A stretch of DNA of 64,000 nucleotides from Mustelus asterias (taxonomy: Eukaryota): contig NC_135830.1 in the NCBI RefSeq assembly GCF_964213995.1, positions 9,672,001 through 9,736,000 on the forward strand. Direction: 5' to 3'. Shown here in pieces: positions 4,043 through 64,000 of the stretch (position 1 is the stretch's first letter; each line of letters opens with the position of its first letter). The notes under the pieces are model-generated. The model did not search any database. It was not told where the DNA came from and was given only the letters and a program-made list of their open reading frames with translations. A program made the translations under genes and the position numbers.

Positions 4043-5173
4043 TCAGACCTGGATATGATTAACAGCATCAATAAGTGTAGAATCCAAACCTTGCAGTCCC
4101 TTGTGAACTCGCCGGTGTGTTAGCAGGTGGGATGACTGAATAAATCCCTTTCCACAGACATTACAGGTGAATGGCCTCTCCCCAGTGTGAACTCGCTGGT
4201 GTTTCAGAAGATAAGATAAATGAGAAAATCCCTTCCCACAGACAGAGCAGGTAAATGGCCTCTCCCCACTGTGAACTCTCTGATGTGTCAGCAGGTTGGA
4301 TGACTGACTGAATCCCTTCCCACACATGGAGCAGGTGAACGGCCTCTCCCCAGTGTGAACTCGCTGGTGATTCAATAGGTTGGATGAACGAGTGAATCCC
4401 TTCCCACACACGGAGCAAGTGAATGGCCTCTCCTCACTGTGAACCTGCTGGTGTGTCAGAAGGTTGTATGAACGGGTGAATCTCTTCCCACATTCAGAGC
4501 AGGTGAACGGTCGATCCCCTGTATGGAGCTGCTGGTGTATCAGAAGGTTGGATGAATTAATGAATCCCTTCCCACAGTCTGAGCAGGTGAAGGGCCTCTC
4601 CCCAGTGTGAATTCTCTGGTGGTTCAATAGGGCAGGTGGACGGCTGAATCCCTTCCCACACACACAGCAGGTGAATGGCCTCTCCCCAGCGTCAGCAGAT
4701 CCTTTTTGTTTTTAAAGCTCTTCGCACAGTGGGAACAATTAAAAAGTTTGTTATCAGAGTGAACAAGTTGATGTGTCTGCAGGTGGGATGACTGAATGAA
4801 TCCTTTCCCACACAGAGCAGGTGAATGGTCTCTCCCCAGTGTGAATACGTTGGTGCGTCAGCAGATCTTTTTTGCATTTAAAACTCTTCTCACAGTCAGA
4901 ACATGTAAACATTCTCTCATCTGTGTGAACAAGTTGGTGTGTCACAATGTGGGATGAGCGAGTGAATCCCTTCCCACACACAGGGCAGGTGAACGGCCTC
5001 TCCCCAGTGTGAACCCGTCGGTGAGTCAGAAGGTTGTATGAATGGGTGAATCCCTTCCCACAAACAGAGCAGGTGAACGGTCTCTCCCCAGTGTGACTGC
5101 GCCGATGAACTTCCAGTTGTGATGGGAAACCGAATCCTTTCCCGCACTCCACACATTTCCACGGTTTCTCCAT
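4043..5173 (-). pseudogene. C2H2 zinc-finger array A, about 13 fingers, frameshifted (or a truncated 4-finger product)
   Basis: accATG-EKPWKC start at 5173; 4 intact fingers, a 2-nt TG loss near 4810 (TCT GTG TGG GAA) giving a stop at 4754, a second deletion near 4690, then 7 intact fingers (ORF 4043-4663); acceptor TTTTTACAG|GATAT at 5526/5525. Confidence 0.85.
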
Positions 5174-6069
5174 GGTGCCCTTGTGTTTCTCCAGGTTGGA
5201 TGATCAGTTCAAGCCACATCCACACACACAACATACACGTAGTTTCACCCTGCTGTGAACTGTGATGTTTTTTCAGGCTGTGTAACTGGTTAAAGCTCTT
5301 TCCACATTCAGTTCACTGGAACACTCTCACTCGGGTGTGTGTTTGTCTCGATGCTTTTCCGGTCATACTGATGTTTAATTTATTTGCCCACAGGCAGAAC
5401 AGACAAATATTTCTCTTTCTATATTCAAAGACCGATGATATTCAGCTCCGAAGGAACTGAATGACTTTGTCAGATGTGATGTCCGGTTTGAGTTTTCTGT
5501 CTGCCAATCTTTCACTTCCAATATCCTGTAAAAACAGTTTAGAAAAGTCATCACTGTCAGAACACGATACAAACTCTGAACAGACAATTCTAGTTTCTCT
5601 GGAACATTTTTTCCTTTCTTGTTCCCCCAAATCAGTAAATCCCCGTCCCACACACTCTCCCTCCTCCCTGGGCTGAAATCCAAACCCATCTCACCATTTC
5701 TTTCCTCCACTCCCAGTTTTCTCCCTCCCTCTCCTCTATCTGGATTCAGTTCTCCAGCTCCTGTCTGCAGACTGACAATAAAACCAATGGGTCTTACTGG
5801 GGGTGTTGGGGCCTCCAGCGGGTGTTTGTGAATCCTCCCCGCCCACCTCCCAGGGTTTCCTTCCTTCCCAGAGATCAGAGTCCTCATTGATTTGAGGCCA
5901 AAGTGTAACCTCTTATTTATTGTCCCCCTCCCCCATCCTCTGATGTGAACCATCCTCCAGTGGCTGAGCCAGGATGGGGCCGTTAACCTGGGCCTGTTCC
6001 CGGGAGGGAGGGAGGGAGGGAGAAGCCCCGCAGCTGCAAACCAGGGAGCTGACAATGATTCTGAAGGGT

Positions 6070-6500
6070 TTGCGGATCCACAAAGTGTTTCCAAATCCTC
6101 CCAGCCACCGCCTAACGCTGACTCCGCTTCTCCGGGACAAACAAGCGCCAAGGACAGCAATGACACTGCGCATGCTCCACATCACAATGCCCGGGGACTG
6201 ATTGACGGCAGCTCCGGACCAATAGGAAGAGGGGTCGGGGCTGGGGGACCGAACGGGAGCGGCTGGTCCTCCAACCAATCGGAGTGAATGAGGGGCGGGA
6301 CTGGAGGACCGAATGGGAGCGGCTGGTCCTCCAACCAATCGGAATGAATGAGGGGCGGGACCTGAAGCATGCGCAGTGCGGGTGAACCAGATAAACTGTT
6401 GGACTTTAACCTGGTGTTGTTTGACTTGTTGCTGTGTTTACCCCAGTCCAACGCCGGCATCTCCACATCACTGCGGGTAATGGCGACGGACGGCCGGTTT
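6070..6500. promoter_or_regulatory. CpG-rich, probably bidirectional promoter module P1
   Basis: CCAAT at 6219, 6275 and 6335; GGGGCGGG boxes; 60-bp tandem duplication 6241-6361; NRF1-like GCGCATGC at both ends; YY1-like TAATGGCG near 6478; lies between divergent genes A and B. Confidence 0.7.
6384..6471 (+). mobile_element. Penelope-like family 1 3'-terminal fragment inserted in promoter P1
   Basis: Matches the reverse complement of 7145-7220 and 30336-30420; flanked by TGCGGGT direct repeat (6377-6383, 6472-6478); the paralogous promoter near 29900 lacks it. Confidence 0.75.
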
Positions 6501-6742
6501 TAGTTTGGAAGCGAGATCAATACGAGGTAGAGGGCGGCGTGCGGGGAATGATAAATGTGGCGGGTGGGTCGAGAGGCTTTGTAAACATGTAGTTCAAACC
6601 CAAACCCCGGAAATGAACTTCCCGGTTCCCCCCCTTTGTACCAAATGGAGCGGCAGCTTGTAGTGTTAGACCCGGGCTGACTGCCGCCATTGAGGCTGCA
6701 TGTGGGAGGCCGGCAGGGATTGTGATCGGAGAGTGAAGCCCC

Positions 6743-9575: not shown

Positions 9576-9589
9576 ATCTGTAGCCTTAT

Positions 9590-9774: not shown

Positions 9775-10256
9775 AATGGGGAGAGAGTGTGTGGGATGGA
9801 GATTTACAGCTTTTGGGGAATGAGAGAGGAAAGAATGTTCCATAGAAATTGTTCTGAATTTCTATCCTGTACTGACACTGATGACTTTTGGAAACTCATT
9901 TTCAGGATATTGAAAGAGGAATCACAGGCCGAAATCTCAAACGTCATGTCTCGGCGTGACAGAATCGTGTTCCTTGGGACCTCAATATCATCGGACTTTG
10001 AATCCAGAAGGAGAAATGATTGTCCAGTCTGTCGATTTGAAAAGATTTGAAATGTCAGTGTGAGTGAAAAAGCATCAACACACTGCCACACTTGAGTGAG
10101 AGTGTTCCAATGCACTGACTAAAGAGCTTTAACCAGTTACACAGTCTGAATAAATATCACACCATTCACAGCGGGTAGAGACTGTAATCTTGTCCTGTGT
10201 GTGGACGAAGTTTCAACTGATTGTCCACCCAAGAGTGAGGCAAGGAAACCTGCACC

Positions 10257-10931
10257 ATGGAGAAACCATGGAAATGTGGGGACTGTGGGAAGGGATACAG
10301 AGCCCCATGTCTGCTGGAAGCTCATCGGCGCAGCCACACTGGGGAGAGGCTGTTCATCTGCCCTCAGTGTGAGAAGGGATTTAATCAGTTCTCCAGCTTA
10401 CGGACACACCAACGAGTTCACACTGGGGAGAGACCATTCACCTGCTCTCAATGTGGGAAGGGATTCATTCAGTCATCCCACCTGCGGACACACCAGCGAG
10501 TTCACACTGGGGAGAGGCCATTCACCTGCTCTCAGTGTGGGAAGGGATTCACTCAGTTATCCAGCCTGCAGACACACCAGCGAGTTCACACTGGGGAGAG
10601 GCCATTCACCTGCTCTCAGTGTGGGAAGGGATTCACTCAGTTATCCAGCCTGCAGACACACCAGCGAGTTCACACTGGGGAGAGGCCGTTCACCTGCTCT
10701 CAGTGTGGGAAGGGATTCACTCGGTTACCCGACCTGCGGACACACCAGCGAGTTCACACAGGGGAGAAACCATTCACCTGCTCTCAGTGTGGGAAGGGCT
10801 TCACTCGGTCATCCACCCTGCGGACACATCAGCCAGTTCACACTGGGGAGAGGCCATTCACCTGCTCTCAGTGTGGGAAGGGTTTCAGCGTTTCATCCCG
10901 GCTGCTGAGACACCAGCGAGTTCACGAGTGA
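10257..10931 (+). CDS. C2H2 zinc-finger protein B, 8 fingers, no effector domain seen
   Basis: Intact 224-aa ORF, accATGG context, TGERPF linkers; acceptor TTTTCAG|GATAT at 9905/9906; fingers 4 and 5 identical. Confidence 0.9.
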
Positions 10932-11184
10932 TGACAGGGGTTGGATTCTGCTGTTATTGTTTCTGCTCTCAGTTGCATCCAGGATTGCATTTTGTTCATT
11001 CTCACAGTTGGTCAATGGGAAGGGTCAGAGGGTTTCTTTGTGCTGGACTGGCCGGTCTCAGCCTCCAGTGGGCTGATGCTCTTTGAACCTTTTTGTGAAT
11101 ACCTGGTTTCAAATGTCACAAGGATCACAGAGTGACAGGGTGTTAGGAAGTTTAGAGATATTGAGTCAGAAGAAAACAGAGGTT

Positions 11185-12212: not shown

Positions 12213-12239
12213 ATTTTCTTTGTTCTTCATTCTGTTTGG

Positions 12240-21656: not shown

Positions 21657-22424
21657 AGTTTAATTCTAACTCATTCTGAGTAAATATTCTCACCAGGTCC
21701 TCTGTTGGGGCCCTGCTGAGCAGCTTTAATGGTCCGTGATTGCAGAAACTGAGCAGTCACAGGAATGTGGTCAAGATAGTCCAGTCCCATAATGCCTCAC
21801 ATTCAATCTGCAGTCCTTCAATTATAACAGAATATGTGGCTGTATGTAGCTGCCTCGGCCGTGGTCAACCCCAACACTGCCTTCCTGAACTGCTACAATG
21901 CCTGAGGTGTAAGTACACCCACAGTGCTGTTAGGGAGGGATTTCCAGCTACACATTCCAGACTTTCACTAGACTGTAGGTGGATATCAGATTGATATATT
22001 CCATTCAACCACACCCAAGATGAGTTATTCCAATTCCTTTATTGTCCAGGACAATATATTCACAATATCTTTAAAACAGAAATTAAACATTCCCATTTGA
22101 TTTCAGGTATTAACATATTCTGTTAGTTTGTTCTTTATTGTCAATGTCAGGCTGGGGTTGTTCCCTTGGAGCAAAGGAGGTTGAGGGGAGATTTGATAGA
22201 GGTGGACAAGATTCTGACAGGTTTAGATAAGGTGGACAAAGAAAAGCTGTTCCCATTAGCTGATGGGACAAGGATGAGGGGGACACAGATTTATGGTTTT
22301 GGGTCAGAGATGCAGGGGGGTCACCCTTCGACCCTCCCCATTGACCAACTGTGAGAATGAACAAAATGCAGTCCTGGGTGTAATTGAGAGCAGAAACAAT
22401 AACAGCAGAATCCAACCTCTGAAA

Positions 22425-23015
22425 TCACTCGTGAACTCGCTGGTGTCTCAACAGGTGGGATGACTGAGCGAATCCCTTCCCACACTGAGGGCAGGTGAAT
22501 GGCCTCTCCCCAGTATGAATGTGCTCATGTGCCCGCAGGTTGGATGAACAAGCGAATCCCTTCCCACACTGAGAGCAGATGAATGGCCTCTCCCCAGTGT
22601 GAACTCGCTGGTGTATCCGCAGGTCAGATGACCGAGTGAATCCCTTCCCACACTGAGAGCAGGTGAATGGCTTCTCCCCAGTGTGAACTCGCTGGTGCCT
22701 CCGCAGGCTGGATAAATGACTGAATCCCTCCCCACACTGAAAACACGTGAACAGCCTCTCCCCAGTGTGAACTCGCTGGTGTGTCAGCAGGTTGAATGAC
22801 TGAATGAATCCCTTCCCACACTGAGAACACATGAACGGTCTCTCCCCAGTGTGAACTCGCTGGTGTCTCTGCAGGTTGAATGACTGAGTGAATCCCTCCC
22901 CACACTGAGAGCACATGAATGGTCTCTCCCCAGTGTGGTTGCGCCGATGAGCTTCCAGCTCATTTGGGTATCTGTATCTCTTCCCACAGTCTGCACATTT
23001 CCATGGTTTCTCCAT
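22425..23015 (-). CDS. C2H2 zinc-finger protein C, 7 fingers; inverted paralog of B
   Basis: accATG at 23015 (MEKPWKC), intact ORF; acceptor CACAG|GACAT at 23366/23365; flanks homologous to those of B. Confidence 0.9.
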
Positions 23016-24119
23016 GGTGCAGGTGTCCTTGCCTCTCTCTTGTGTGGACAATCCGTTGAAGCCTCGTCCACACACAGAACACGGGTACAGTCTCTCGCTG
23101 CTGTGAATGATGTGATATTTATTCAGGCTGTGTAACTGGTTAAAGCTCTTTAGTCAGTGCGCTGGAACACTCTCACTCGAGTGTGGCAGTGTGTTGGTGC
23201 TTTTCCAGTCACACTGATGTTTGAAATCTTTTCAAATCAACAGACCGGACAATCATTTCTCCTTCGAGATTCAAAGTCCGATGATATTGAGCTCCCAAGG
23301 AATATGACTCTGTCAGATCTGACATGACGTTTGAGATTTCGGGCTGTGATTCCTCTTTCAATGTCCTGTGAAATTAGTTTACAAAAGTCATCAGTGTCAG
23401 TACAGGATAGAAAGTCAGAACAGGATTCTATTTAAAAATGAAAGTGGATGGGCACTTGAAGGAAATAAACTTTCAGGAGAATGGGGATATAGAGTGGGAA
23501 TGGGACTGGAATGTTATACAGAGAGTCAGCATGGACTCGAGTTACCAAATGTATTCCTTCTGTGCTGTAATGACTTTATGACTGGAAATGTATAACATCG
23601 CTACAGCATTATATTACAATGCAAGAAATAATAATAAATACAGAAACATAAATAATTTATCTAATCTGGGTACCATATAATAACACTAGACATATCTCTG
23701 TCCTATATTAATTTACTGTCCCCTTAAATATCAGCCATCTCCTGCCCTTTAATTGTGAACATTAGGAAAGAGACCATCCTTTTAGACAGAAAGAAGATTA
23801 ACGTTTCAGGGTGGGCAGAATGAATTACAGGGAATAAAAATGAATCAGATTTTGTTGGTTAATATAAGCTCAGAAGTGGAAGGGAAATGATCTCCAGTGG
23901 AAGAGAAACAGTTCCTGAACATTGTAAGACTAAGCTGGTCACTCAGCAGTGAATAGAGTTGTGAAGTGGTAAAAACCTCATCAAGACATAGCTTGTGGAA
24001 ATAATAGTTAAAATACACCCATTATTAGAGGCAGAGGAAGGTAGACAATGGCAGAGAGCTGATCAGGGAGGGCAGAGGTGAAACAGAGAAATGGATGGTC
24101 GTTTAAAAATTCATAAAAA

Positions 24120-25733: not shown

Positions 25734-25838
25734 CTCAAAACAATTTCACTGTTTTCACATTTTAAAATCTGCAGCAGCTGAAAAGATCTCAGAGAGATTG
25801 ATGTCCGGGAAAAATTTTGCAATCTTCAAATCTTCTCC
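25734..25838 (-). other. Probable non-coding 5' exon of gene C
   Basis: TTTACAG|GGAGAAGATTTGAAGA...GAAAACAGTGAAATTGTTTTGAG|GTGAGT; homologous to 45399-45515 with both splice sites kept. Confidence 0.55.
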
Positions 25839-26513: not shown

Positions 26514-26821
26514 ATATGATATAAGGTGCTTGACAAGGTAGATGCTGAGAGGATGTTTCCTCTGGTGTGGAAATCAAGTAAAAATAAAGGATCTCAAATT
26601 TAAGATGAAGAGAGATCTTTTCTCTCAGCGGGTTGTTGATCTTTGGAACTCTGTCTTCACCAGTGAGTATTGGAGGCAGGTCATTGAATATATTCAAAGC
26701 TGAGGTTTTGATCCACAAGAAAGCCAAGGGTATGGACGGGGTGGGGGTAGCAAAGTAGACATGATCTTATTGAATGATGCAGCAGGCTCGATGGGCCCAA
26801 TGACTGGCTCCTGTTCTTGGA

Positions 26822-27275
26822 TAGCTGCGCATGCGCCCTGCTACCTATTGTCCCTCTGAAGATCGAGGTTCTGAACCAACCCCTGAAACCACGCCCATTA
26901 TGACCCGTCACAGACAGCAGCGCATGCGCCCTCCGTCTCCGCTGAAACAAGATGGCGGCCGATAACCGGGGCCTGTTCCAGGGATAAAAGCCTGGGAGCT
27001 GTAAACTCGGGACCTGCAGGGTCTATTCGGGCCGTGCGGCCTACAGCGGGTGTTTCGAAGCCATACCTCCCTCCCTATCCCGACTCCCGGCTCCATTTCT
27101 CCCACAGCCCAACCGACTCACCCGCAGAAAAATGTGCCAACTCCCGCACTCGCAAGACTCCGAGCAAAGTGACATTGCGCACGCTCCAGATATAGCACTG
27201 CGCCTGCGCAATAGGCTCCTGTGGAATGAATAGGACACTGTCACACCCGCAGGGGCAGCTGGGAATTAACGGCGT
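26822..27275. promoter_or_regulatory. CpG-rich promoter module P2
   Basis: GCGCATGCGC twice (NRF1-like), AAGATGGCGGCC (YY1-like) near 26949, minus-strand donor CGG|GTGAGT near 27121; inverted homolog at 44110-44480. Confidence 0.7.
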
Positions 27276-27759: not shown

Positions 27760-27970
27760 TAAGAACAAAGAAAATTACAGTACAGGAACAGGCCCTTTGG
27801 CCCTCCAAGCCTGCACCAACCATGCTGCCCGATTTAAGTAAAACCCCCTACCCTTCTGGGAACCATATCACTCTATTCCCAAAGTATTCATGTACTTGTC
27901 AAGACGCCCCTTAAAAGTCACTACCGTACCTGCTTCCACTACCTCCCCCGAGTTCCAGGCACCCACCACT
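27760..27970 (-). mobile_element. CR1 3' end fragment
   Basis: Reverse complement of 11975-12225. Confidence 0.85.
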
Positions 27971-30090: not shown

Positions 30091-30103
30091 ATAAGTGACA
30101 GAG

Positions 30104-41428: not shown

Positions 41429-41742
41429 TGTTCTGATTGTGACGAGATTTAAAAGTGCAATGGATCTGCTGCAACACAAGCACAACACTGAGCAGAGGCT
41501 GTTTACCTGCTCCATGTGTGGGAAGGGATTCACTCAGTCATTGTATCTCAGTGAACATCAACTTGTTCACAATGAGAAAAGACTGTTTAAATGCTTGGAC
41601 TGTGAGAAGAGGTTTAAAAGCTCCCTCCCTAACAGCACCGTGTACCTGCACCATAGGGACTGCAGTGATTGAAGAAGGCAGCTCACCACCACCTTCACAA
41701 GAGTAATGAGGAAGGGGCAATAAATGCTGGCCTGAGCGTTTG

Positions 41743-43730: not shown

Positions 43731-44109
43731 ATTGTTCTGACTTTGCCAACAGGGCTATGGAATTTATTGGATAGATCTTCCAAAGGCCAGCACAGGCATA
43801 CTGAGCTGAATGGTTTCCATCTGTGCTGTATCATTCTGTAAAACAACGAATATTCAGAATCAGGAAGAGACAGAACGAGAGGAACCAGTGACTGTGCGAT
43901 TGAATCCAGCCAGAGTCAGCACCATCAGGGAAGTGGAAAGAGAGGAGACAGTGTAAAAGCTTCTAAATTTCTGTGTAGTTCCACAGGAGAACTTTGAGAA
44001 ATTTAACATAGCATATCATCAATTCGCAATAATTTGCGTTTTTAAAAAATTAATTTATCTCAATAGCTAACAATGTTATTTTATATTCATTGTTTGAGGT
44101 TACAATGGC

Positions 44110-44580
44110 GCTGCTGTTAACCACCATTCCCTGCGGATGTGAAAGTACCCTATTCCCTCCACAGGAGCCCACTGCGCAGGCGCGGTGCTGTATGTGACGC
44201 ATGCACAATGTCACTTTGTTCGGAGCCCTGCCGGTGCCGGAGTCGCTTTTTTCAACGGGTGAGAGTGTGTGGGGCGGAGGGAGGAATGGAGCCGGGAGTC
44301 AGGGTGGGGAGGGAGTGGAGGCTTCACAAACACCCGCTGTGGGCCGCAAGGTCCGAATAAGAGCCTGCGGGTCCCGGGTTTGCAGCTGCGGGGATTTTAT
44401 CCGGGATCAGGCCCAGTGCCGCGGCCGCCATCTTTGTTCCGCGGGGAGCAGAGCGCATGCGCGGCCAGTAGGCGGTGCTTCAGGCTCCCGGTGACCAGGA
44501 GAGGAAAGGTTTGACTCATTGACTGACAGGGCGGGTTAATTGGCGCTCTCTTCAGAGAGGGAAGGTGCTGCAGGGCGAAT
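44110..44580. promoter_or_regulatory. Promoter module P2 (inverted copy); probable exon 1 of gene H
   Basis: TGCGCAGGCGC, donor CGG|GTGAGA near 44259, GGCCGCCATCTTT (YY1-like, minus strand), GCGCATGCGCG. Confidence 0.7.
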
Positions 44581-44743
44581 GTGCAGCCATCCGAATAACA
44601 GAAGAAAATATAATCAGAATTAGGAGTATGAGGAGGCCATTCGACCCATCAAGGTTGCTCTGCGATTCAATAAACTCATGGCTCATCTGATCAAGAAAAT
44701 GCTGGAAAATCTCAGGTGTGACAGCATCTGTGGAGAGAGAATA

Positions 44744-45398: not shown

Positions 45399-45515
45399 GG
45401 AATTAGAAGATTTGAAGACTGCAATTGTTGTCCGACTCCAGTGCTTCTGGCATCTTTCCAGCTGCAGGCTCCAGCAGGAGGTTTTAAATTTGAAAACAGT
45501 GAAATTGTTCCAGAG
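45399..45515 (+). other. Probable non-coding 5' exon of gene H
   Basis: TTTCACAG|GG...GAG|GTGAGT; homologous to 25734-25838. Confidence 0.55.
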
Positions 45516-45609
45516 GTGAGTATTATTGCGCATTCATCTACAGTTTAGAGTTTTTAGTGCTTTGCTCTGTTATCTGCGAGAGGTTTCATGGCTCTGGGAC
45601 TGGTGTGAT

Positions 45610-45780
45610 TCACCAGCGAGTTCACACTGGGGAGAGGCTGTTCACCTGCATTGTGTGTGGGAAGGGATTCAGTCAGTCATCCACCTGCTGAGACACCAGC
45701 GAGTTCACAAGTGGTTGCAGGGGTTGGATTTTGCTGTTTTGCTGCTGTTAAATCACATTCAGGATTGAACCATGTTCATT
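45610..45780 (+). pseudogene. Zinc-finger 3'-end relic (last finger and tail)
   Basis: [23 protein letters not shown], frameshift, then [18 protein letters not shown]. Confidence 0.75.
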
Positions 45781-46234
45781 CATCTGAATTATCGATGCAG
45801 ATTTGATGGGCTGAATAGTCTCTTTCTGCACTGTAGGGGTTCCACGGATTCTTAAAATTCTGTCCGAATTGAAGATAATTTCACTATTTCTGATTTCCGT
45901 ACATCTGGAGATAAATTCCACTCCTTTGTGAGCATTTTGATTGATTTGATGGCTCGCAATGATGTTTCAAATTCATTATTCACTCTAAGCCAGTGAGGAA
46001 AGAGTGTTCCACAGCAACTAGAATTGTCTGTTCTCAGTTTCTGAGCTGTACTGACTGTGATGACATTTGTAAACTCCTTTTACAGGATATTAAAAGGGGA
46101 GGATTTGCCAGAAGAAATCTCAAATGAAACTTCACGTCAAGCTCTGACAGAGTCACTCATTAGGACGGGGAAAACCATCACCCATTTTACCATCAGAGTG
46201 ACAGGAAAAGCACCAAGACGCAGTCACCCACACC

Positions 46235-47083
46235 ATGGGAAAACCATGGAAATGTGGGGATTGTGGAAAGGGATTCAGATCCCCATCTGAGCTGGAAACA
46301 CATCGACGCAGTCACACTGGGGAGAGGCCATTCACCTGCTATCAGTGTGGAAAGAGATTTACTAATTCATCCGACCTGCTTACACACCAGCGAGTTCACA
46401 CTGGGGAGAGGCCATTCACCTGCTCTGATTGTGGGAAGAAATTTAGTATTTCATCCAATCTAGTGAGACACCGTCGAGTTCACTCTGGGGAGAGACCATT
46501 CACCTGCTCAGTGTGTGGAAAAAGATGCAGAGATTCATCCACCCTGCTGGTACACCAGCAAGTTCACACCAAGGAGAGGCTGTTCACTTGTTCTGAGTGT
46601 GGGAAGGGATTCACTCGGTTATCCAGTCTGCAGAGACACCATCGCGTTCACACTGGGGAGAGACCATTCACCTGCTCAGAGTGTGGGAAAGGATTCAGAG
46701 ATTCATCTGACCTGCTGGCACATCAGCGAGTTCACACTGGAGAGAGGCCGTTCATCTGCTCCGTGTGTGGGAAAGGATTTGGAGATTCCTCCACCCTGCT
46801 GACACACCAGCGAGTTCACACTGGGGAGAGGCCGTTCACCTGCTCCAATTGTGGGAGGGGATTCAGTCAGTTAGCCAATCTGCTGAGACACCAGCAAATT
46901 CACAGCGGGGACAGGGAGAGGCCTTTCACCTGCTCGGAGTGTGAGAAGCGATTCAGTGATTTACCTACCCTGCAGACACACCAGCGAGTCCACACTGGGG
47001 AGAGACCATTCACCTGCTCTGACTGTGGGAAGGGATTCACTCAGTCATCCCACCTGCTGAGACACCAGCGAGTTCACAAGTGA
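46235..47083 (+). CDS. C2H2 zinc-finger protein H, 10 fingers
   Basis: accATGG-GKPWKC, intact 282-aa ORF; acceptor TTTTACAG|GATAT at 46085/46086. Confidence 0.9.
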
Positions 47084-47869
47084 TGACTGGGGTTGTATTC
47101 TGCTCTTATTGCTGCTGTTAATCACATCCGGAACTGAACCATGTTCATTCTGACAGTTGGTGAAGTGTGGGGGTCAGAGGGTTTCTTGCTGTTGGACTGG
47201 CCGGTCTCTCAATTTTCATTCCAGTGGCTGATTCTCTTTGAGCGAGGGCACATTTCCACTGAAATGATCCACAAAAACAGATGTCAGATGAGACTGAGAT
47301 GAGGAAAAAATTCTGAACTCAAAGGACAGTGAACTTGTGGAATTCTCCACCACAGACGGCTGTGGAATCCAAGTCACTGAATATATTCAAGGAAGAGATG
47401 GATTTTATTTTAGATTTTAATGGCTTCAAGCGGTGTGGGGAGAATATGGCATTGAGATCGAGGATCAGCCATGATCATATTGAATGGTGGAGCAGACTCG
47501 AATGGCCTGCTCCAAGTTTCTATAGAGTACATTAATTTTATCCTGGATAGTAAATAGTCTTTTTCCTCCCACTACAGGTGTCTTGTCGCTCATCCGTCCT
47601 CGTTCTGAGGGTTGGCCGCGCTCTGAACAATCTTTCTCCACTGATTTCTCAGCTGCTCTCACTGCCTGTCCCATCGAGAGGCCGGTCCACATTCTGATAC
47701 TATCCACCCGTGCCATCTCGGGCCTTCCTTGTACACATTTTCCAGGTGTTTTGTCTCGCATTGGTCAATAAAAATGCCTTTCACCAGGATGCTGTGTCAC
47801 AAGTCTTTGTATTAGCTAAAGTTTTGGCAATACTTTGTCTCTGAAAGAAACCCCGTAACAGCCCTGAAC

Positions 47870-48048
47870 ATCACTGGCCTTTGAATGTGGAAGGAGCAAT
47901 GTTACATCTATTCTGTCCATGGGATAAGATTTCAGATATAGTTGTGACTGGAAAAGCACTGAGACACACACACCCGAGTGAGAGTGTTCCAGTGAACTGA
48001 GTGTGGAAAGAGCTTTAACCAGTTACACAGCCTGAAAATACATCACAC
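47870..48048 (+). pseudogene. Orphan dead-finger leader relic, cut off at a SINE
   Basis: CACACCCGAGTGAGAGTGTTCCAG...GGAAAGAGCTTTAACCAGTTACACAGCCTGAAAATACATCACAC. Confidence 0.7.
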
Positions 48049-48049
48049 T

Positions 48050-48393
48050 ATAGAAACATAGAAACCCTACAGTGCAGAAGGAGGCCATTCGGCCCATCGA
48101 GTCTGCACCGACCACAATCCCACCCAGGCCCTACCCCCACATATTTTACCCGCTAATCCCTCTAACCTACACATCCCAGGACTCTAAGGGGCAATTTTTA
48201 ACCTGGCCAATCAACCTATCCCGCACATCTTTGGACTGTGGGAGGAAACCGGAGCACCCGGAGGAAACCCACGCAGACACGAGGAGAATGTGCAAACTCC
48301 ACACAGACAGTGACCCGAGCCGGGAATCGAACTCAGGACCCTGGACCCTGGAGCTGTGAAGCAGCAGTGCTAACCACTGTGCTACCGTGCCGC
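48050..48393 (-). mobile_element. HE1/V-SINE-like SINE
   Basis: Very similar to 1579-1913. Confidence 0.9.
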
Positions 48394-50862: not shown

Positions 50863-52011
50863 TCAGTCCTGGGTGTGATTAACAGCAGCAATAACAGCAG
50901 AATCCAACCCTTGCTGTTGCCTGTGAACTTGCTGGTGTTTCAGCAGGTTGTTTGACTGAGCGAATCCCTTCCCACACATGGAGCAGTTGAACGGCCTTAC
51001 CCCAGTGTGAACTCGCTGGTGTTTCAGCAGATTCTGTTTACTTTTAAATCTCTTCTCACAATCAGAACACTCAAAAGGTCTCTGGTCAGTGTGAACAAGT
51101 TGGTGTGTAGTCAGGTGGGATGACTGAGTGAATCTCTTGCCGCACAGGGGGCAAGTGTAAGGTCTCTCTCCAGTGTGAACTCGCCGGTGTATCAGAAGGT
51201 CAGATGCATCAATGAATTCCTGACAACACACAGGGCAGGTGAATGGCCTCTCCCCAGTGTGAACTCGATGGTGTCTCAGAAGGTGAGCTAATCGAGTGAA
51301 TCCCTTCCCACAGAGAGAGCAGATGAATGGTCTCTCCCCAGTGTGAGTGTGCTGGTGTTTCAGAAGATCCTTTTTGCTTTTAAATGTTTTATCACATTCA
51401 GAACAATTGATAGGTCTCTGATCAGTGTGAACAAATCGATGTTTCAGGAGCTGGGATGAACAAGTGAATCCCTTCCCACACACGGAGCAGATGAACGGCC
51501 TCTCCCCAGTGTGAGTGCGCTGATGAATCAATAAATCCTTTTTACTTTTAAAGTTCTTCTCACAGTCAGAACATTGAAATGGTCTCTGATCAGTGTGAAC
51601 ACTTTGGTGTGTCAGGAGGTGGGATGACTGAGTGAATCCATTCCCACACACGGAGCAGATGAAAGGCCTCTCCCCAGTGTGAGTGCGTTGGTGAATCAAC
51701 AAATCCTTTCTGCTTTTAAAGCTCTTCCCACACTCACAACATTTAACCGGTCTCTGATCAGAGTGAACCTGGTGGTGAGTCCGGAGGTTTGATAAAGCAT
51801 TAAATCCCTTTCCACATTGAAGACAGGTGAATGGCCTCTCACCAGTATGGACATGTTGGTGTGTGTACAGGCTGGATGACTGAGTGAATCCCTTCCCACA
51901 CACAGAGCAGGTGAATGGTCTCTCCCCAGTGTGAATACGTCGATGGGTTTCCAATTCAGATGGGTAATTGAATCCCGTCCCACAGTCCGCACATTTCCAC
52001 GGTTTCTCCAT
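50863..52011 (-). CDS. C2H2 zinc-finger protein J, 13 fingers plus [16 protein letters not shown] tail
   Basis: Intact 382-aa ORF from ATG (MEKPWKC). Confidence 0.9.
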
Positions 52012-52137
52012 GATTATTGACAGGCTATCGGGTGTAGGCGGGATGCAGATTTGAGCTCACTATCAGATCAGCCATGATGTTATTAAATGGCGGAACTGGC
52101 CCGTGGGGCCGAATGGCCTATTGCTGCTCCTTGTTCA
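52012..52137 (+). mobile_element. CR1 3'-UTR fragment inserted at the start codon of gene J
   Basis: GATCAGCCATGAT...AATGGCGGA...GGCCGAATGGCCTA; CATG duplicated at both ends. Confidence 0.75.
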
Positions 52138-53091
52138 CATGGTGCCGGTGTCCTCATGTCTCTCCAGGTTATAGAATCAGTTGAAACCAGGTCCACACAA
52201 AGAACACGTGTACGGTGTCTACCTGATGTAAATGTGCTATTTCTTTTCACACTGTGTGACTGGTTAAAGCTCTGTTCCAGCTGACTGTGGAAAAATAACT
52301 GAGATGTCTGTGTCTCGGGGCTTTTCCAGTCACACTGATGTTGAATAATTTCCCAAAGACAAAATAGGCAAACGTTTCTCCTTCCACATTCATAGGCCTT
52401 TGATATTCAGATCCTGAAGAATCATGTGACACTGTCAGATCCCGAGATGTTTGGTTTGAATCGCCCGTCTGCAGATATTCTGGAAAAGGAGTTTACATTG
52501 AATTACTTTGAATACACAAGACATAAACAAGCCATTCAGTTCAACTCTTTATACTTGACACATCTTCTCCTGTCCCATAGACCTCATCTCAGCCTTTCAA
52601 TTGATTTTTCTATTTCTTTTTCTCTCGTGTGCTTCTCTCATTTTCTTTTGAAACAATCTCAGCACTTTCCTCAACTCATTTCTATGGTGATTCTAAACCT
52701 GTGAGTGAAGAAATTTGTCCTTATTGCCTTCTTGGATTTATTAGTAACTATCTTGTATTTATGACTCTTTGTCTATTGATCGTTCCTTCTTTTAGACTCT
52801 GTCACAAGTGGAACATTCTCTCCACATTTCCCCTGTCCAAGCCACGAATAATTTTAAAGACTTTTATCAGGTCACTGCTCTACAAGAAAAAACTTCAATC
52901 CATTTAATCTTTCCTGAAAGCTGTAATCTCTGTTTACAAACATCATCACAGTCAATGCAGAATAGAAATCACAGACAGACAAACATTTCTCTTGGGGTTG
53001 TGTGAAATTCATCGACTTGTAACCGTGTGTAAAAGCAGTTTTCAAACATCTATCAGTGTCAGTCCACAATAGAAATGCTGAACAGACAATT

Positions 53092-56020: not shown

Positions 56021-56825
56021 AATTAGTCAGCAGAAAGAGAACCAGAAAGCAGAATGGGCCCCGAGACTGAAACCAGGTTTAACTTAGTTAGAGAGGGCGG
56101 TTTAGAGAAACCCCCTTCACAATTTCTCATCAAATCTCTAAACAGTCAGTTCTGGACACAAAGTTACCATCTGCTATTCTGACTGATCGGGTCAGGGTGA
56201 TTCAGATTGATGTTTTCTCATGTTTTTTGAATGAAGTGAATCATCAAAAATACTATCTCTAGTTGTACACATTTTTTAAAAGGATACTGAAATAATTATC
56301 TGTCAATTTATTTGGATTTCAGTTCAGGGAGGAGGGAGAGTGTGTGGGATGGGGATCTGCAACTGTGGGGTTTCGAGAGGAAAAAATTCCAGAGAAACTA
56401 GAATTGTCTGTTGAGAATTTCTATCCTGGACTGTCAGTGATGAGTTTTATTGACGGTTTTTACAGGTATTAGAAGTTGAGGATTGCAGACGGGAATCTCA
56501 AACCAGACATCACATCAAGATCTGACAGAATCACTTGATTCATTAGGACCTGGATATCATCATACTTGGAATGTGGAAGGAGAAATCTTTGTTTGTTTTG
56601 TCTGTGGGAAAAGATTTCAAACATCAGTGTGACTGGAAAAGCACCGAGACACTCACACACCCGAGTGAGAGTGTTCCAGTGAACTGACTGGAAAGAGCTT
56701 TAACCAGTTACACAGCCTGAAAAAAACATCACCATTCACAGAGGGGAGAAACTGTACACGTGTTGTGTGTGTGGACGAGGCTTCAACTGATCATCAACCT
56801 GGAGAGAGATGATGACACCGACACC

Positions 56826-57498
56826 ACGGAGAAACCGTGGATATGTGGGGACTGTGGGAAAGCATTCACTTGCCCATCCAAACTGGAAACTCATCGACGC
56901 ACCCACACTGGGGAGAGACCTTTCACCTGCTCCATGTGTGGGAAGGATTTCACTCAGTCATCCAACCTGGTATTACATCAGTGTGTTCACACTGGAGAGA
57001 GGCCGTTCAGCTGCTCTGTGTGTGGGAAAAGGTTCATTCAGTCATACAATCTAGCGTTACACCAGCGGGTTCACACTGGGGAGAGGCCGTTCACCTGCTC
57101 CGTGTGTGGGAAGGGATTCATTAATTCCTCTAACCTAGTGGCACACCGGCGAGTTCACACCGGGGAGAGGCCATTCACCTGCTCCGTATGTGGAAAGGGA
57201 TTCACTCGGTCATCCCACCTATTGACACACCAGCTTATTCACACTCGGGAGAGACCTTTTAAATGCTCAGACTGAGAAGTGCTATAAAAGTTCTGGTGAA
57301 CTGATGTCCCATCAACGTGTTCACACTGATGAGAGACCGTTCAGGTGCTCTCACTGTGAGGCTGGGTTCAGGCGATCATGTAGCCTCATTGTCCATCAGC
57401 GAGTTCACACCGGAGAAAGGCCATTCACCTGCTCCGAGTGTGGGAATGGATTCACTCAGTCATCCTACCTGCTTAAACACCAAAGAATTCACAAGTAA
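56826..57498 (+). pseudogene. C2H2 zinc-finger array K, 8 fingers, start ATG>ACG and frameshift
   Basis: accACG-GAGAAACCGTGG at 56826; 5 intact fingers, then a 2-nt loss (GAC TGA GAAG) giving a stop at 57275, then 2 more intact fingers; acceptor at 56465/56466. Confidence 0.82.
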
Positions 57499-60114
57499 CA
57501 CAGTGATTGGAATCTGCTGTTAATCCTGTCCATGACTGTAATATGTTCATTGGGTTTGTTTTTGTTGATGTTAATGAACTCCAGCCAGTTGTACTGTTTA
57601 ACATTCTGAATAAAAGTCAAATAAATTATCTTTGTGTTCAATGCTATGTTGAATCTTTTTAATATCATCAACACAATTGAATTCCTTTTGTGGTGCTCTC
57701 CCGTTGATCTTCCTCTATCTTCACCTCCCCACAAGTGCTCATGGAGGAGAAACTCATGATCTTCTTTGTCACTAGGATTGGGACAATCCAATCAGCTGCC
57801 TCTGCTGCTTCCCTCCTTCCCCTAACCCACTGAACCAAACCTCCTCTAACGCTCCCTTTTGCCTGCGCTCTGAACTCTGAACTCTGATCTTTCTGCAGTT
57901 TCTCTCCCACCTCCCCTCGTGTCCTCTTAGAGCTCATCTTGTCGATGAGTCCCATCTCCTGATCCTTCAGTCCTATTCCCACTGAACTACTGACAGCACG
58001 ACTTCTCCATAATAGCTGCTATTGTTAATAGCTCCCTCCTTCAAATCCAATATCATCATCCACTTCTCTCCAAAATATCCTTGACACATGCCCTTGTAAA
58101 CTACCATTCAATCTCCCCTTCCTCATATTGTGAATTGTTGTACCTTTCTCACAGGTGTATAGAAAAGTTTATTTTGTTTGTTCAGAATCTGTGGAATTTT
58201 GTGCCTTTATTCACTTGTGAAGTATCTTGAATATCCACCTTTATCTATTTTATACAAACTCATCCAAATCTAAAAGCAGTTTAGTGGGAATTGGGTGAAT
58301 GGAACAGAAGGTGGGTCTCCTGGACACGATGAGCTGCTGAGAGGAGATAGAGTGTTACAATCCCAGCTGATGTTACTATTGGACAGGAAGTCCCAGAATA
58401 TAACCCTGGCTCAAGTGACCATAACTTTTACCTTTTTGTTTTAGAAATGTGGATGAACAGAGTCACTGGACGGCCAATTAGCTTTTAACAAAACATCTAT
58501 TAAACATGAAAAGATTGACAATAACTGAAGACTTTTTCATCCCACCCTCCTCCTGCTGCAGCGAACACAGTGAGGGAGCTCCCTCTTGTGGTGCTGTGAG
58601 ATAATTGGTCTCTACCTGGGAGATCACTGAATTCTCAGATGACGAAAGGATCTTATTGGAGAATTGTGCTGCCGTAATTTTCTTGTTGCTATTATTTTTC
58701 ATTTTAATATACTTTAATACAGATGGACCTATTCACAAATCGATAACAATCTCAGAAACAGTAACAGGCAAACTCGCAGACACACAAACACATTGACAGA
58801 CACTGGGAAACTCACAAACATATCTCTAGATATACATAATCTCAGACAAACATCTACAGGCAAACTGGCAGACAAACACATTCACAGACATGCAGACGAA
58901 AAAATATTCAGACTTACACAAACACATGCACAGACATACACATTATCACACACACTCTCACAAACACGGAGACTGAGACCATGAAGGGTTGATGTTAATG
59001 TCATTCTAATATCCACCTGCTGGACACTAAAATAATAACAGAAGCAAATCTGAGGCTCAGTGTGTGGGTTTTACTATGAAATGAGATAATGTATAAATAT
59101 ATCCCCTATTGCTCAGGGTGGGAGTGGAATTGATGATTTATCTGCTGTCTGTGATTGCCTTGAACAAATAGTAAATTGTAGAGATTATAAAGTTTGAATT
59201 GTAATATCTAATGGTGTAAAGTATCTGGGAGCAGAGTGGATGTGGTAAAGGCTGGAATACAGACTGGGGGAATGAGGGTGAAACTGCTGTGCTGAGTGAA
59301 TGGTTCTTGTTTTAGGGAGGGATGGATGGAGAGAGAGAGAGAGAGAGGAAGTGTGAGGTGGATTGTGGGAGAGATGGATGGATGGGGGTGAATGTGAGAA
59401 GCTGAAGTTTACATTTGAAGAGGTTCCCAGTGCCTCTGAGCAGCTGAACTGGGGAAGCTTTTGGCCAGACTGTGCTGCTGCTGCTGCAGTTTCCCCTGCT
59501 GGCCACGAAGGAACGCTGTAACTCTACCGGCCATTGCTGTTCCCACTGTCACCTCTTGCCGGCTCCAGCCCGCCCGCAGCTCATACAGGAACTCACTGAC
59601 TACAGGAACTCACTGACCAGGAGCGGAGTGGAATTGGAGGTGATCAATGATTCCAAAATGAAACTGGATGGATGATTGAAATTGATTTGAAGGAAATCAA
59701 CTTGCAGGGGAATTGGAATCTAGAAGGGGAATAGGATTGACAGGATTGCTCTACAGAGAGTCGTCATGGACTCGAGTTGCCAACTCGACCTCTAACTATT
59801 GCAGAACATGTTGTAGGAATGAAAGAAAACAGATGCTCACAGGGTTGTAAAAGGATAGAACTGAGTCTAAAACACCAATATGTTTTCATGGTCGTACATT
59901 TAAAATCAGATTATTGGAGATTAAAACTAAACCAATGGCATTGCTAAAGATGTTGGTGTTTCTCCTGCGAAGGTTGCAGCAAAGGAGGAAGCTTGTCAGA
60001 AATCAGTACCTTCTAATGTATTTATGATGGGTGAAAATAGAGACATGAGGGATTATGAAGGAATTGTAAATTCCACCTTGTCCTATACAGTATATAACAC
60101 ATTTTTCTTCTCTT

Positions 60115-61374: not shown

Positions 61375-61933
61375 CCCAGAGGTGCCTCTACTTTCTCAGA
61401 AGACGAAGGAAACTTGACATATCAGCTACGACTCTCACCAACGTTTACAGATGCACCATAGAAAGCATTCTTTCTGGTTGTATCACAGCTTGGTATGGCT
61501 CCTGCTCTGCCCAAGACCGCAAGAACTACAAAGGGGGTTGTGAATGAAACCCAGTCCATCACGCAAACCAGCCTCCCATCCATTGAGTGTCAACACTTCC
61601 CGCTGCCTCGGAAAAGCAATCTGCATAATTAAGGACCCCACGCACCCCGGACATTCTCTCTCCCACCTTCTTCTGTCAGAAAAAGATACAAAAGTCTGAG
61701 GTCCCATACCAACCGACTCAAGAACAGCCTCTTTCCTGCTGCCATCAGACTTTTGAATGGACCTACCTCACACTAAGTTGATCTTTTGCTACACTCTAGC
61801 TATGACTGTAACACTACATTTTGCACACACTCCTTTCCTTCTCTATGAATGGTATGCCTTGTCTGTATAGTGCACAAGAAACAATACTTTTCACTGTATA
61901 TTAGTACATGTGACAATAATAAATCAAATCAAA
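61375..61933 (+). mobile_element. Rex1/Babar-like LINE 3' end
   Basis: LYFLRR...TNVYRCTIESILSGCITAWYG; TGACAATAATAAATCAAATCAAA tail. Confidence 0.78.
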
Positions 61934-63182
61934 CTAACATGAGTAAAGATATTGATATCCACCCTGGTAATGGACAATGCAGAGGCAGGAAAAGTGCTGG
62001 AAACATTTCAAGATAAAAGTCCACCACCAGAGGAAATAAGACCTCAAATAGTGAATGACAATTGACACTGAGTAGCTGCTATTGCTGAGACAGAACAAGA
62101 AATAACAACAACAGGAGTTCAGAGAAATGGACAAATTATTTTAAAAAAAATATTTAAACCCCCCCCAATGATTGGAATGAGTAGTTTGTGAGTGATGAGG
62201 AAGATTCAAAATGTTAGAAAACAAAATGAAAGTCCAGAATGAAGAAGCTTCGACATCGCTGGAAAGAAATTAAATAAAACTCAATCTGAATTAGATCAGG
62301 AGAAACTCCAGGATTATGAAATGTTCAAAGAACAAACAGGAGCAGCAAACCATTTTGCTTAAACATCAGAAGTATTTGAATGACATTCTGGAAATGGTGA
62401 AGAAAATTTGGACCAATGACCTACAGCAGATTAGCGTGTGGAATGAGAACAAAAGTCTGACCATTTATAGACAGGGGCTGGTAAATGAAAGTTTTACCTT
62501 GGAGAATAACTGGAGCTGAGGAGAATTCTCCCAAGGGACAGTGGTATGTTTATTGTGGTCTAGACAGAAATAAATAACTTCCAGATTGTGCCTTGTGAGA
62601 GAATCTGGGCATGTAAAAAGTAAACCTGAACACATCACACACAGTTATAAATAATAGTGTTAAATTAAAAGAATTAAAACAAAATAGTATTATGTACAAT
62701 AAAGTTCATTTTGGTAAAAAGAATTGTGTAGCTTTGTTGGTTTAAAGAAGGTATTCAGCTTTCTTTAATGAGGAAGTGACAATGCCAAGGCCGGACCTTG
62801 TTTCCTCCTTGGTCGAAATGTAACCCCTGTCCACATCTCCACTTCATTCTTCCACTGGTCTTATGGTTCAGACTCCGAGAACATCGGTGGGAAATCAGAC
62901 CCTGACAATTCCCACTCACTTTCAGCCATCCTCACAAAAGCTGCTGGGATTGTAATCTTCTGCCTGAAATTTTATTTTTCTTGAGTTTCCAACATTCAGC
63001 AAGAATTCTGTGACCATCTATTATTCCTGACAGTCTTATGGTGAAGGAAGAAACTGGAGCCAATCTTTACTTGGAATAGATTTATTCAGAGTGAAACATG
63101 ACAGGTGTATACCTCCTAAAGTAACTCGTTGTTAGTCTCCCTTTCTATGTAGTCGCTCAATTGATGCGATTAACAGCCACAG

Positions 63183-64000
63183 TCAGAGCATCGAATCACT
63201 GTAACTGCCTTGGTGTCTCAGCAGTTTGGATGAACAAGTGAATCCCTGCCCACACACAGCAGGTGAATGAATCTCTGCGTTATGAAATCGTTGGTGTCTC
63301 AGTAAATTGGATAAATCATTGAATCCTTTCTCACACACGGAGCAGGTGAACGATCTCTCCCCATTGTGAACTCGCTGGTGTGTCTGCAGGTGGGATGACT
63401 GAGTGAATCCTTTCCCACACTGAGAGCAGGTGAATGGCTTCTCCCCAGTGTGAACTCGTTGGTGTCTCTGCAGGTTGGATGAATCACTGAACCCCTTCCC
63501 ACAGTCAGAACAGGTGAATGGCTTCTCCCCGGTGTGAACTCTCTGATGTCTCAGCAGATCGTATGACATTCTAAAGCTCTTTGTGCAGTGAGAGCAGCTG
63601 AACGGTCTCTCCTCAGTGTCCAGCAGCACAGATTGTATGAAGCAACTCCCACAGTCAGAGCATTTAAAATGTGTCTCATTGGTGTGGGTGCCTCGTTGTC
63701 CCAGCAGACTGTCAGACTGACTGAATCCCTTCCCACGCACGGAGCAGGTGAATGGCGTCTCCCTGGTGTGAATGCGTCGATGTCTCACCAGATTTGATGA
63801 CTGAGTGAATCCCCTCCCACAGTCAGAGCAGCTGAACGGCCTCTCCCCGGTGTGAATGCGCTGGTGTGTCAGCAGGAGGGATGAGTGAGCGAATCCCTTC
63901 CCACAGTCAGAACAGGTGAACAGCCCCTCACCGGTGTGAAAGCTCTCGTGATTCCTCAAAGCAGATGCCCGTGTGAATCCTTTCCCACACTGAGAGCAGG
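63183..64000 (-). CDS. C2H2 zinc-finger array L, 3' part (runs off the window), several damaged fingers
   Basis: Frame stays open to the window edge; about 7 intact fingers plus Cys/His-loss and in-frame deletion fingers. Confidence 0.75.
   Translation of the reverse strand, partial: CSQCGKGFTRASALRNHESFHTGEGLFTCSDCGKGFAHSSLLLTHQRIHTGERPFSCSDCGRGFTQSSNLVRHRRIHTRETPFTCSVRGKGFSQSDSLLGQRGTHTNETHFKCSDCGSCFIQSVLLDTEERPFSCSHCTKSFRMSYDLLRHQRVHTGEKPFTCSDCGKGFSDSSNLQRHQRVHTGEKPFTCSQCGKGFTQSSHLQTHQRVHNGERSFTCSVCEKGFNDLSNLLRHQRFHNAEIHSPAVCGQGFTCSSKLLRHQGSYSDSML

What the first reader, a model, noticed from the sequence alone, without database searches (positions are those of the whole stretch)
4043..64000. 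Cluster of effector-less tandem zinc-finger genes built on one duplicating cassette
Seen: nine arrays and three relics. Most share, in order, a ~200-bp intron end (..TTCCAGAGAAACTAGAATTGTCTGTTC..TCCTGGACTGACAGTGATGAC..TTTTACAG|GATAT), a dead-finger leader, MEKPWKC, 7-13 fingers and a common tail. No KRAB, SCAN or BTB sequence is visible, and the frame from acceptor to ATG is closed where checked. Helix residues differ strongly between copies. Established: rapidly diversifying tandem ZNF clusters (KRAB-ZFPs in tetrapods) repress transposons. Inference: this may be an independent cartilaginous-fish birth-and-death ZNF system whose proteins are naked DNA-binding arrays, possibly directed at the surrounding retroelements.
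Basis: partly seen in the sequence, partly recalled or inferred. Interest (0 to 1): 0.8.

Follow-up and report, generated by a model that had tools for sequence, protein, structure and literature searches.

The report
Shark zinc-finger genes lacking effector domains
A cluster of shark genes whose predicted proteins are bare, highly variable zinc-finger arrays without the silencing domain that similar tetrapod genes carry, with a conserved RNA-like stem hidden in their dead leader; whether they police transposons is untested.

Summary
The cluster is real: nine C2H2 arrays (89 fingers), five with unbroken ORFs, and more relics than reported. The duplicated unit is a whole gene (CpG-island promoter, small non-coding exon, one finger exon, 3' tail), and most copies are old (72-78% identical). 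The leader is closed in the finger frame in 8 of 8 copies. No KRAB, SCAN or BTB was found in 149 of 222 upstream open segments, nor in 11 of 11 related shark proteins. All 16 named leader hits are sharks of several orders, so this is a shark-wide family. Finger scaffolds are under purifying selection; contact residues run at dN/dS 0.9-1.3, not significantly above 1. New here: the otherwise neutral leader holds two blocks four times better conserved than the rest that pair into a 15-bp stem (z -2.5 to -5.8 in 6 of 8 copies; no compensatory change). Expression, splicing and transposon targeting were not shown. Large shark ZNF counts are in a published table; I found no paper on this architecture. 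The scan noted the same shared stops earlier in other genomes. Verdict: new variant of the lineage-specific tandem ZNF systems.

The parts
4043..5525 (-). Gene A finger exon: acceptor at 5525, 352-nt leader, ATG 5173; 11 canonical fingers but frameshifted after finger 4 (139-aa ORF); probable pseudogene
5697..6500 (-). CpG-island promoter and intron-1-like region of A; 96-97% identical to 53091-53484 and 53883-54111
9906..11086 (+). Gene B finger exon: leader, ATG 10257, 224 aa, 8 fingers, shared tail; intact ORF; stem 5' arm mutated
22323..23365 (-). Gene C finger exon: ATG 23015, 196 aa, 7 fingers; intact; inverted 87-88% paralog of B
25734..25838 (-). Predicted small non-coding exon of C (AG acceptor, GTGAGT donor); homologous to 45399-45515, stop in the homologous frame
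   Evidence: splicing inferred from signals only
26800..27327 (-). CpG-island promoter and predicted exon-1 donor (27122) of C, with NRF1-like and YY1-like motifs (motif names recalled)
27969..28396 (-). Relic D: intron end and leader with stem, no array
28990..30100 (.). CpG-island promoter of the A/I type, interrupted by a retrotransposon 3' fragment with a 15-bp target duplication (29080-29094, 29758-29772)
33583..34971 (-). Gene E finger exon: divergent 183-nt leader without stem, ATG 34788, 401 aa, 13 fingers; intact
35345..35528 (+). Relic acceptor and leader start
39711..41570 (+). Gene F finger exon: ATG 40070, 12 fingers in frame, then frameshift
44050..44600 (+). CpG-island promoter and predicted exon-1 donor (44258) of G; 75% identical to the promoter of C
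45399..45515 (+). Predicted small upstream exon of G; no Pfam match; its open frame does not lead into the finger frame
45606..45781 (+). Relic last finger plus shared tail
46086..47240 (+). Gene G finger exon: shortened 149-nt leader (3' stem arm deleted), ATG 46235, 282 aa, 10 fingers, tail; intact
47863..48051 (+). Relic H: leader with stem
50863..52479 (-). Gene I finger exon: ATG 52011, 382 aa, 13 fingers; intact; ~113-nt insertion at the original start codon
53091..54400 (.). CpG-island region between head-to-head genes I and J; promoter core inverted relative to its arrangement at A
56466..57620 (+). Gene J finger exon: ACG in place of ATG, stop and frameshift after finger 5; probable pseudogene
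56627..56713 (+). Conserved leader stem, best example (arms 56627-56642 and 56697-56713); also at 23130-23214(-), 28005-28089(-), 39868-39958(+), 47942-48028(+), 52254-52335(-); broken at 5280-5368(-) and 10058-10142(+)
63183..64000 (-). Gene K, 3' part of the array (7 canonical fingers, two degenerate); 5' end outside the window

Best explanation
A local slice of an old, shark-wide family of finger-only C2H2 genes. Shown: each unit is a whole gene copied at DNA level (promoter, intron pieces and tail travel with the array, in both orientations); the exon after the shared acceptor starts with a dead stretch (polar linker plus three ruined fingers) that evolves like non-coding DNA; the only long ORF starts at a Met that sits in the place of a finger linker, in a CACCATGG context in A, B, C, F, G; scaffolds are purifying, contact residues are unconstrained or diversifying; some copies are dead. 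Inferred: transcripts from CpG-island promoters splice through non-coding exons into this exon, and yield 200-450-aa bare finger arrays that bind DNA by sequence and act by occupancy or by partners that bind the fingers themselves. New specificities arise by gene duplication, finger duplication inside arrays and free change of contact residues. I put repeat/transposon DNA as the main target at about 40%. The leader stem is most likely an RNA element that tunes translation or stability of the message (about 45%); it is dispensable in single genes.
For: Closed leader in 8 of 8. Leader differs from its consensus at 0.155, like the intron end (0.167) and third codon positions (34 of 201), while first/second positions differ at 41 of 412. 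No KRAB/SCAN/BTB in 149 of 222 upstream stop-free segments of 38+ aa or in the precomputed Pfam lists of 11 of 11 shark proteins among 120 listed, where many tetrapod rows carry them. Those 11 have unrelated N-termini of 6-101 aa before the first finger; 3 start MEK(P/A)WKC. Shark models that include the leader differ from one another exactly upstream of the acceptor position (P0131, P0149, P0150, P0158), and P0003, P0004, P0005, P0135, P0160 end at the same RFQTSV stop. omega about 0.03 at C,C,F,L,H,H, about 0.5-0.6 at other scaffold sites, 1.17 at contact sites. Stem arms 8 of 212 mismatches against 302 of 1994 elsewhere, p 4e-7; z -2.5 to -5.8 in 6 of 8 copies; 0 of 62 coding-array windows reach -2.5. 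475-3586 ZNF ORFs per chondrichthyan genome in 8 of 8 rows shown (PMC10547256 supplement).
Against: No transcript of these genes was seen. Contact dN/dS 0.92-1.30, p 0.14-0.92 in all 8 comparisons with independently chosen pairs. omega at C and H is biased low because fingers were picked by those residues; the tree has 21 codons for 87 fingers and ignores gene conversion. Only 5 of the 8 complete arrays are unbroken. 73 of 222 upstream segments, all shorter segments, and anything beyond the window were not scanned; Pfam would miss an undescribed or fish-type short domain. The stem has 0 compensatory pairs, 3 one-sided changes and 5 breaks (about 40% of single changes would keep a pair by chance), was found post hoc, and is absent or broken in 3 of the 5 intact genes (B, E, G). 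B, E, F and J have no unambiguous promoter of their own in the window.
Confidence: 0.6

Rival explanations
1. Mostly neutral amplification: one truncated founder gene was multiplied by segmental duplication in repeat-rich DNA; most copies are decaying and the contact diversity is relaxed constraint. The stem is a chance fold in the founder, and the conserved 3' block is a conversion tract or a DNA-level protein site.
For: A, F, J broken and five or more relics; contact dN/dS about 1; no compensatory pairs; the 3' arm stays intact in A, B, H where the 5' arm has changed; no transcript seen.
Against: Non-contact scaffold omega 0.5-0.6 is below 1 (log-likelihood gain about 8 over omega=1); five ORFs of 196-401 aa stay open although copies are 72-78% identical while their leaders carry many stops and indels; both arms, not one, are conserved (5' arm 6 of 107, p 0.005).
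Confidence: 0.2
2. The family has an unrecognised effector: a short N-terminal module (FiNZ- or KRAB-like in role) on an upstream exon, or the polar leader peptide itself, used in a sister subfamily where it is in frame with the fingers.
For: In several shark models the leader peptide runs in frame into the array (P0131, P0145, P0148, P0149, P0150, P0158); the peptide is 67-80% identical across shark orders in the best hits; its first 47-51 codons are open in A, B, C, G; FiNZ has no similarity to known domains (PMC10547256).
Against: In the window the leader changes at the non-coding rate and carries frameshifts; the frame to the fingers is closed in 8 of 8; the N-termini upstream of the peptide share nothing; the two homologous small exons do not keep one frame; no Atlas or Pfam hit for the peptide.
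Confidence: 0.15
3. The shared TGA codons are read through or recoded, so the dead fingers are translated.
For: The TGA in TSV*LEKH is shared across copies and shark orders, and is followed by C and lies in the stem.
Against: Every copy has further stops and frameshifts between that TGA and the array; no Rfam match.
Confidence: 0.02

Closest known systems
Tetrapod KRAB-ZNF clusters
   Same: Tandem clusters, one exon holding a TGERP-linked C2H2 array, upstream small exons, variable contact residues, live and dead copies.
   Different: No KRAB found; upstream exons appear non-coding; start Met lies inside the finger exon; TRIM28 recruitment cannot apply; dN/dS above 1 not shown.
Cyprinid FiNZ-ZNFs (PMC10547256) and ray-finned fish KRAB-like ZNFs (PMC11603059)
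   Same: Lineage-specific fish expansion outside sarcopterygians, clustered in repeat-rich DNA.
   Different: Those have a conserved coding N-terminal exon (FiNZ, 28 aa) and evidence for TE repression or TRIM33 binding; here no conserved coding upstream exon was found and function is untested.
'ZNF-only' polydactyl genes of tetrapods (PMC3971581)
   Same: Arrays without BTB, SCAN or KRAB; 212-1026 models per genome in that paper's table.
   Different: Most human ZNF-only genes there are old and conserved (136 of 212 to tetrapods); here finger-only genes form the fast-turnover family itself, with a shared dead leader and stem.
RefSeq shark 'zinc finger protein 239/271/850-like' models
   Same: Same first finger, leader peptide and stop.
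   Different: Automatic names by likeness to mammalian genes; several models fuse neighbouring copies or translate the dead leader; no description of the family.

Membership tests
KRAB-ZNF | KRAB domain (PF01352) on an upstream exon in frame with the array | tested here: not met
   No hit in 149 of 222 upstream segments, in three window proteins or in 11 of 11 shark relatives; frame closed in 8 of 8. Exons outside the window not examined.
KRAB-ZNF | Single-exon tandem C2H2 array with conserved linkers, in clusters | tested here: met
SCAN-ZNF / BTB-ZNF | SCAN (PF02023) or BTB (PF00651) domain | tested here: not met
FiNZ-ZNF / KRAB-like ZNF | Conserved short acidic N-terminal domain on its own coding exon | tested here: inconclusive
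   No FiNZ or KRAB-like profile was available; no conserved coding upstream exon found, but a sister subfamily has the polar leader in frame.
Lineage-specific birth-and-death tandem ZNF family | Many paralogs of mixed age, intact and dead, restricted to one lineage | tested here: met
   16 of 16 named leader hits are sharks
Lineage-specific birth-and-death tandem ZNF family | Positive selection at contact residues -1, 2, 3, 6 | tested here: inconclusive
   dN/dS 0.9-1.3, not significant; far above scaffold
TE-silencing ZNF system | Binding to and repression of transposable elements | not testable with these tools
Expressed protein-coding genes | Spliced, translated transcripts | tested here: inconclusive
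   one guessed RNA run of another organism, contigs only, no splice joint among the rows shown
Known structured RNA (Rfam) | Match at gathering score | tested here: not met
   0 matches in the window; two chance-level hits, E 1.9 and 4.6

The most novel reading that the evidence does not exclude
Sharks run an adaptive genome-surveillance system of hundreds to thousands of bare finger arrays that silence or block repeats without any tethered repressor domain, born from one founder whose first three fingers died; the dead fingers were re-used as a shared RNA stem that lets the cell control translation of the whole repertoire at once.
Probability: 0.15. Interest if true: 0.85.

Novelty: new variant of a known kind. 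Interest (0 to 1): 0.52.

Why it matters
KRAB/TRIM28 and FiNZ or KRAB-like/TRIM33 explain ZNF expansions in bony vertebrates; cartilaginous fishes have 475-3586 ZNF ORFs per genome (PMC10547256 supplement) and are reported as depleted of KRAB families (PMC8455134), yet no accessory domain is described for them in what I could search. If these arrays work without an effector, the third gnathostome lineage solved the same problem differently. The shared leader and stem give a single handle (one morpholino, one reporter, one DNA profile) to count, silence and test the family, which makes the question directly testable.

Tried and rejected
No whole genome is held, so no genome-wide count. RNA: no listed holder is on record as RNA. 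Laying X1-X4 on 43900-46300 showed no exon-exon joint among the 15 rows shown (65 not shown); X1 contigs run unspliced across the predicted donor and intron, so it may hold DNA or pre-mRNA; no evidence either way. Summed contig depth over the acceptor core is far above that over unique stretches, but the tool states this is no copy number. Metagenome scans for more DNA copies: 0 exact matches; 3 loci of 65-68% GC with no blastn match to the window, dropped as chance; so covariation rests on 8 copies. dN/dS near 2 in close pairs vanished when pairs were chosen and scored on separate codons: rejected as a selection artefact. A conserved uORF ending in the stem: only 3 of 8 copies (B, C, I) have one; not supported. 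TGA readthrough: rejected. Four of 26 hits (P0128, P0142, P0143, P0146) look like unrelated repeats and were dropped without a name look-up. ESM Atlas gave no usable hit for the leader peptide. The covariance model found only its own 8 training copies strongly.
Full report
1. Observation. A six-frame scan finds nine C2H2 arrays between 4043 and 64000, holding 89 canonical fingers with 75 distinct contact codes. The quoted intron motif occurs 5 times against 0 in 100 shuffles. Five arrays have an unbroken ORF: B 224 aa/8 fingers, C 196/7, E 401/13, G 282/10, I 382/13; A (139 aa, 4 fingers, then frameshift), J (ACG start, stop after 5 fingers) and F (frameshift after 12) are damaged; K is cut by the window end. 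At least five relics exist. The tail motif is found behind 7 arrays or relics. No whole genome was held.

2. The unit is a whole gene. Self-comparison shows that promoters and upstream exons were copied with the arrays: 44050-44465 matches 26917-27327 at 75%, 45163-45550 matches 25700-26081 at 72%, 5697-6299 matches 53091-54111 at 96-97%. These stretches are CpG islands (o/e 0.8-0.97 against 0.37 for the window) with motifs I recall as NRF1- and YY1-like. For C and G the signals give promoter, exon-1 donor, a 105- or 117-nt exon, then the finger exon; this structure is inferred from splice signals, not seen in RNA. The two small exons do not keep a common open frame. Introns, both orientations and head-to-head pairs (A/B, E/F, I/J) indicate DNA-level duplication and inversion. 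Most pairs are 72-78% identical; B/C are 87-88%.

3. Effector-less. The finger frame from acceptor to ATG holds 2-11 stops in 8 of 8 copies. The start Met stands where a linker residue would (T-M-E-K-P-W), in CACCATGG context in A, B, C, F, G. Pfam found no KRAB, SCAN or BTB in 149 of the 222 stop-free segments of 38+ aa upstream of the genes on the gene strand (73 were left out, by hand, many of them inside LINE-like fragments). Of 120 proteins listed for the first-finger profile, 11 are from sharks (10 Heterodontus francisci, 1 Mustelus asterias); none carries PF01352, PF02023 or PF00651, while many tetrapod rows do (ranking favoured very long proteins, and several of the 11 appear to fuse neighbouring copies). 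Their N-termini before the first finger are 6-101 aa and share no domain.

4. A shark-wide, old family. A profile of the first 50 leader codons gave 5 hits and 26 hits among 1.84 billion representatives. Of the 26, 4 were dropped as unrelated repeats, 6 have no name, and 16 of 16 named are sharks: Pristiophorus, Heterodontus, Carcharodon, Scyliorhinus (2 species), Stegostoma, with Cetorhinus as a cluster member; from recall these span both main shark lineages. Five models end at the same RFQTSV stop as the window copies, so that stop is older than those lineages or arose in parallel at a CpG (inference). A sister subfamily has a shorter leader that runs in frame into the array and often starts at an MEGKS-type Met. 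Isoforms of one sawshark cluster differ exactly upstream of the acceptor position (P0131, P0149, P0150), which supports use of this acceptor with variable, unrelated upstream exons; these are automatic gene models, not curated transcripts.

5. Selection. On a finger tree, omega is about 0.03 at C,C,F,L,H,H (biased, as C and H were the selection criterion), about 0.5-0.6 at other scaffold sites, 1.17 at contact sites and about 1.5 at -2,+1,+5; neither helix class beats omega=1 significantly (87 fingers, 21 codons, conversion ignored). Close pairs first suggested dN/dS near 2, but with pairs chosen and scored on separate codons it was 0.92-1.30, p 0.14-0.92, with contact pN 0.35-0.48 against scaffold pN 0.09-0.17. 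So the arrays are kept as proteins and their contact residues are free or mildly diversifying; an arms race is not shown.

6. The leader stem. Overall the leader differs from its consensus at 0.155, as the intron end (0.167) and third codon positions (0.169) do. Two blocks break this rule: GTGTGACTGGAAAAGC and GCTTTAACCAGTTACAC, 8 of 212 mismatches, p 4e-7 against CpG-free leader sites; 5' arm alone 6 of 107, p 0.005, a post hoc test. They pair as 10 bp + 5 bp around a 1x2 internal loop, closing about 56 nt. Folding z-scores are -5.75 (J), -3.72 (C), -3.68 (F), -3.60 (I), -2.88 (D), -2.53 (H), but 0.15 (A) and -0.20 (B); F folds on the sense strand only (antisense -0.31), the other three antisense tests also fold (-2.1 to -3.5). 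None of 62 windows from coding arrays reaches -2.5, so this is not a generic property of finger DNA. 115 of 120 cells pair; three changes keep pairing on one side, five break it, none is compensatory. G has lost the 3' arm and E lacks both. Rfam has no match. Other leader windows also fold well in single copies (J 56380, C 23080) and were not followed. My reading: a constrained element, probably RNA, not needed by every gene; a sequence-specific site at the 3' block is a live alternative.

7. Expression. No RNA holder is on record; one guessed RNA run of another organism showed no splice joint among the rows displayed. This is no evidence either way.

8. Literature. PMC10547256 (Wells 2023; read parts 1-2 of 9, passages, and supplement rows): ZNF and retroelement counts correlate across animals regardless of accessory domain; the main text has 0 occurrences of shark, chondrichth-, cartilaginous, skate or catshark; its supplement lists 475-3586 ZNF ORFs for 8 chondrichthyan rows (3 supplementary files were not searched and may bear on novelty). 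PMC11603059 and PMC10380595 (passages): KRAB-like and FiNZ domains with TRIM33 in ray-finned fish; the former places the KRAB-ZNF origin in bony vertebrates. PMC8455134 (passages): families missing in cartilaginous fishes are enriched for KRAB. PMC3971581 (passages): ZNF-only genes are a known class, mostly old and conserved in human. Eight searches listed no paper on this shark family, its leader or the stem; subscription journals are largely outside the library. Earlier scan notes e1-7851811 and e1-7851862 describe shared stops in dead leaders in other genomes as inherited scars; my rates agree for the leader as a whole, and differ for the two arms.

9. Verdict. It works like a KRAB- or FiNZ-ZNF cluster in layout and turnover, but is not a member of either on the features tested. 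Best reading (0.6): shark-wide finger-only family, partly functional, with a conserved leader element. Rivals: neutral amplification (0.2), hidden effector (0.15), recoding (0.02). Novelty: new variant of a known kind. Interest 0.52; the boldest reading (effector-free surveillance under common RNA control) has probability 0.15 and would deserve 0.85.

Noticed in passing
window 29080-29772: A GC-rich ORF fragment (29059-29625, +) that I recall as the 3' end of a Tx1/L1-type element sits inside a family promoter, flanked by a perfect 15-bp duplication; no Pfam hit.
   Followed up: partly
window 52012-52140 (-): A ~113-nt repeat fragment is inserted at the start codon of gene I: the old CACCATG now heads a Met-stop, and a new ATG with A at -3 keeps the 382-aa ORF.
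   Followed up: partly
window 53091-54111 versus 5697-6299: The same promoter block (96-97%) is in one piece at A but split and partly inverted between I and J, so the core now faces J.
   Followed up: partly
window 10335-10925 and 22431-22937: Arrays B and C have near-identical finger scaffolds (0-4 of 42 non-helix bases differ for most pairs) with different helices; B fingers 4 and 5 and F fingers 6 and 7 are identical copies: minisatellite-like turnover.
   Followed up: partly
window 50922-51788: Gene I alternates two finger types with a 168-bp period (KSFK..KDLL and KGFT..SSHL); similar pairs occur in A and F.
   Followed up: no
P0003 (sawshark protein): A gene model joins histone H2A to the same leader exon, suggesting such clusters can lie beside histone genes.
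   Followed up: no
window 15970-16748 (-) and 62295-62519 (+): Open frames that read like coiled-coil protein pieces, unrelated to the fingers; no significant Pfam hit.
   Followed up: partly
window 48746-49088, 6743-6936, 6229-6361: Tandem repeats of 23, 28 and 60 bp; the 60-bp one duplicates a CCAAT/GC-box block in the promoter of A.
   Followed up: no
window 11171-14474, 24567-25367, 36291-39010, 43185-43731; 30827-31267, 39168-39470: Many LINE reverse-transcriptase fragments (RVT_1 at 13638-14474), about ten copies of one ~330-bp SINE-like repeat, and two pieces I recall as Penelope-like; one abuts the cut 5' end of F's intron.
   Followed up: no
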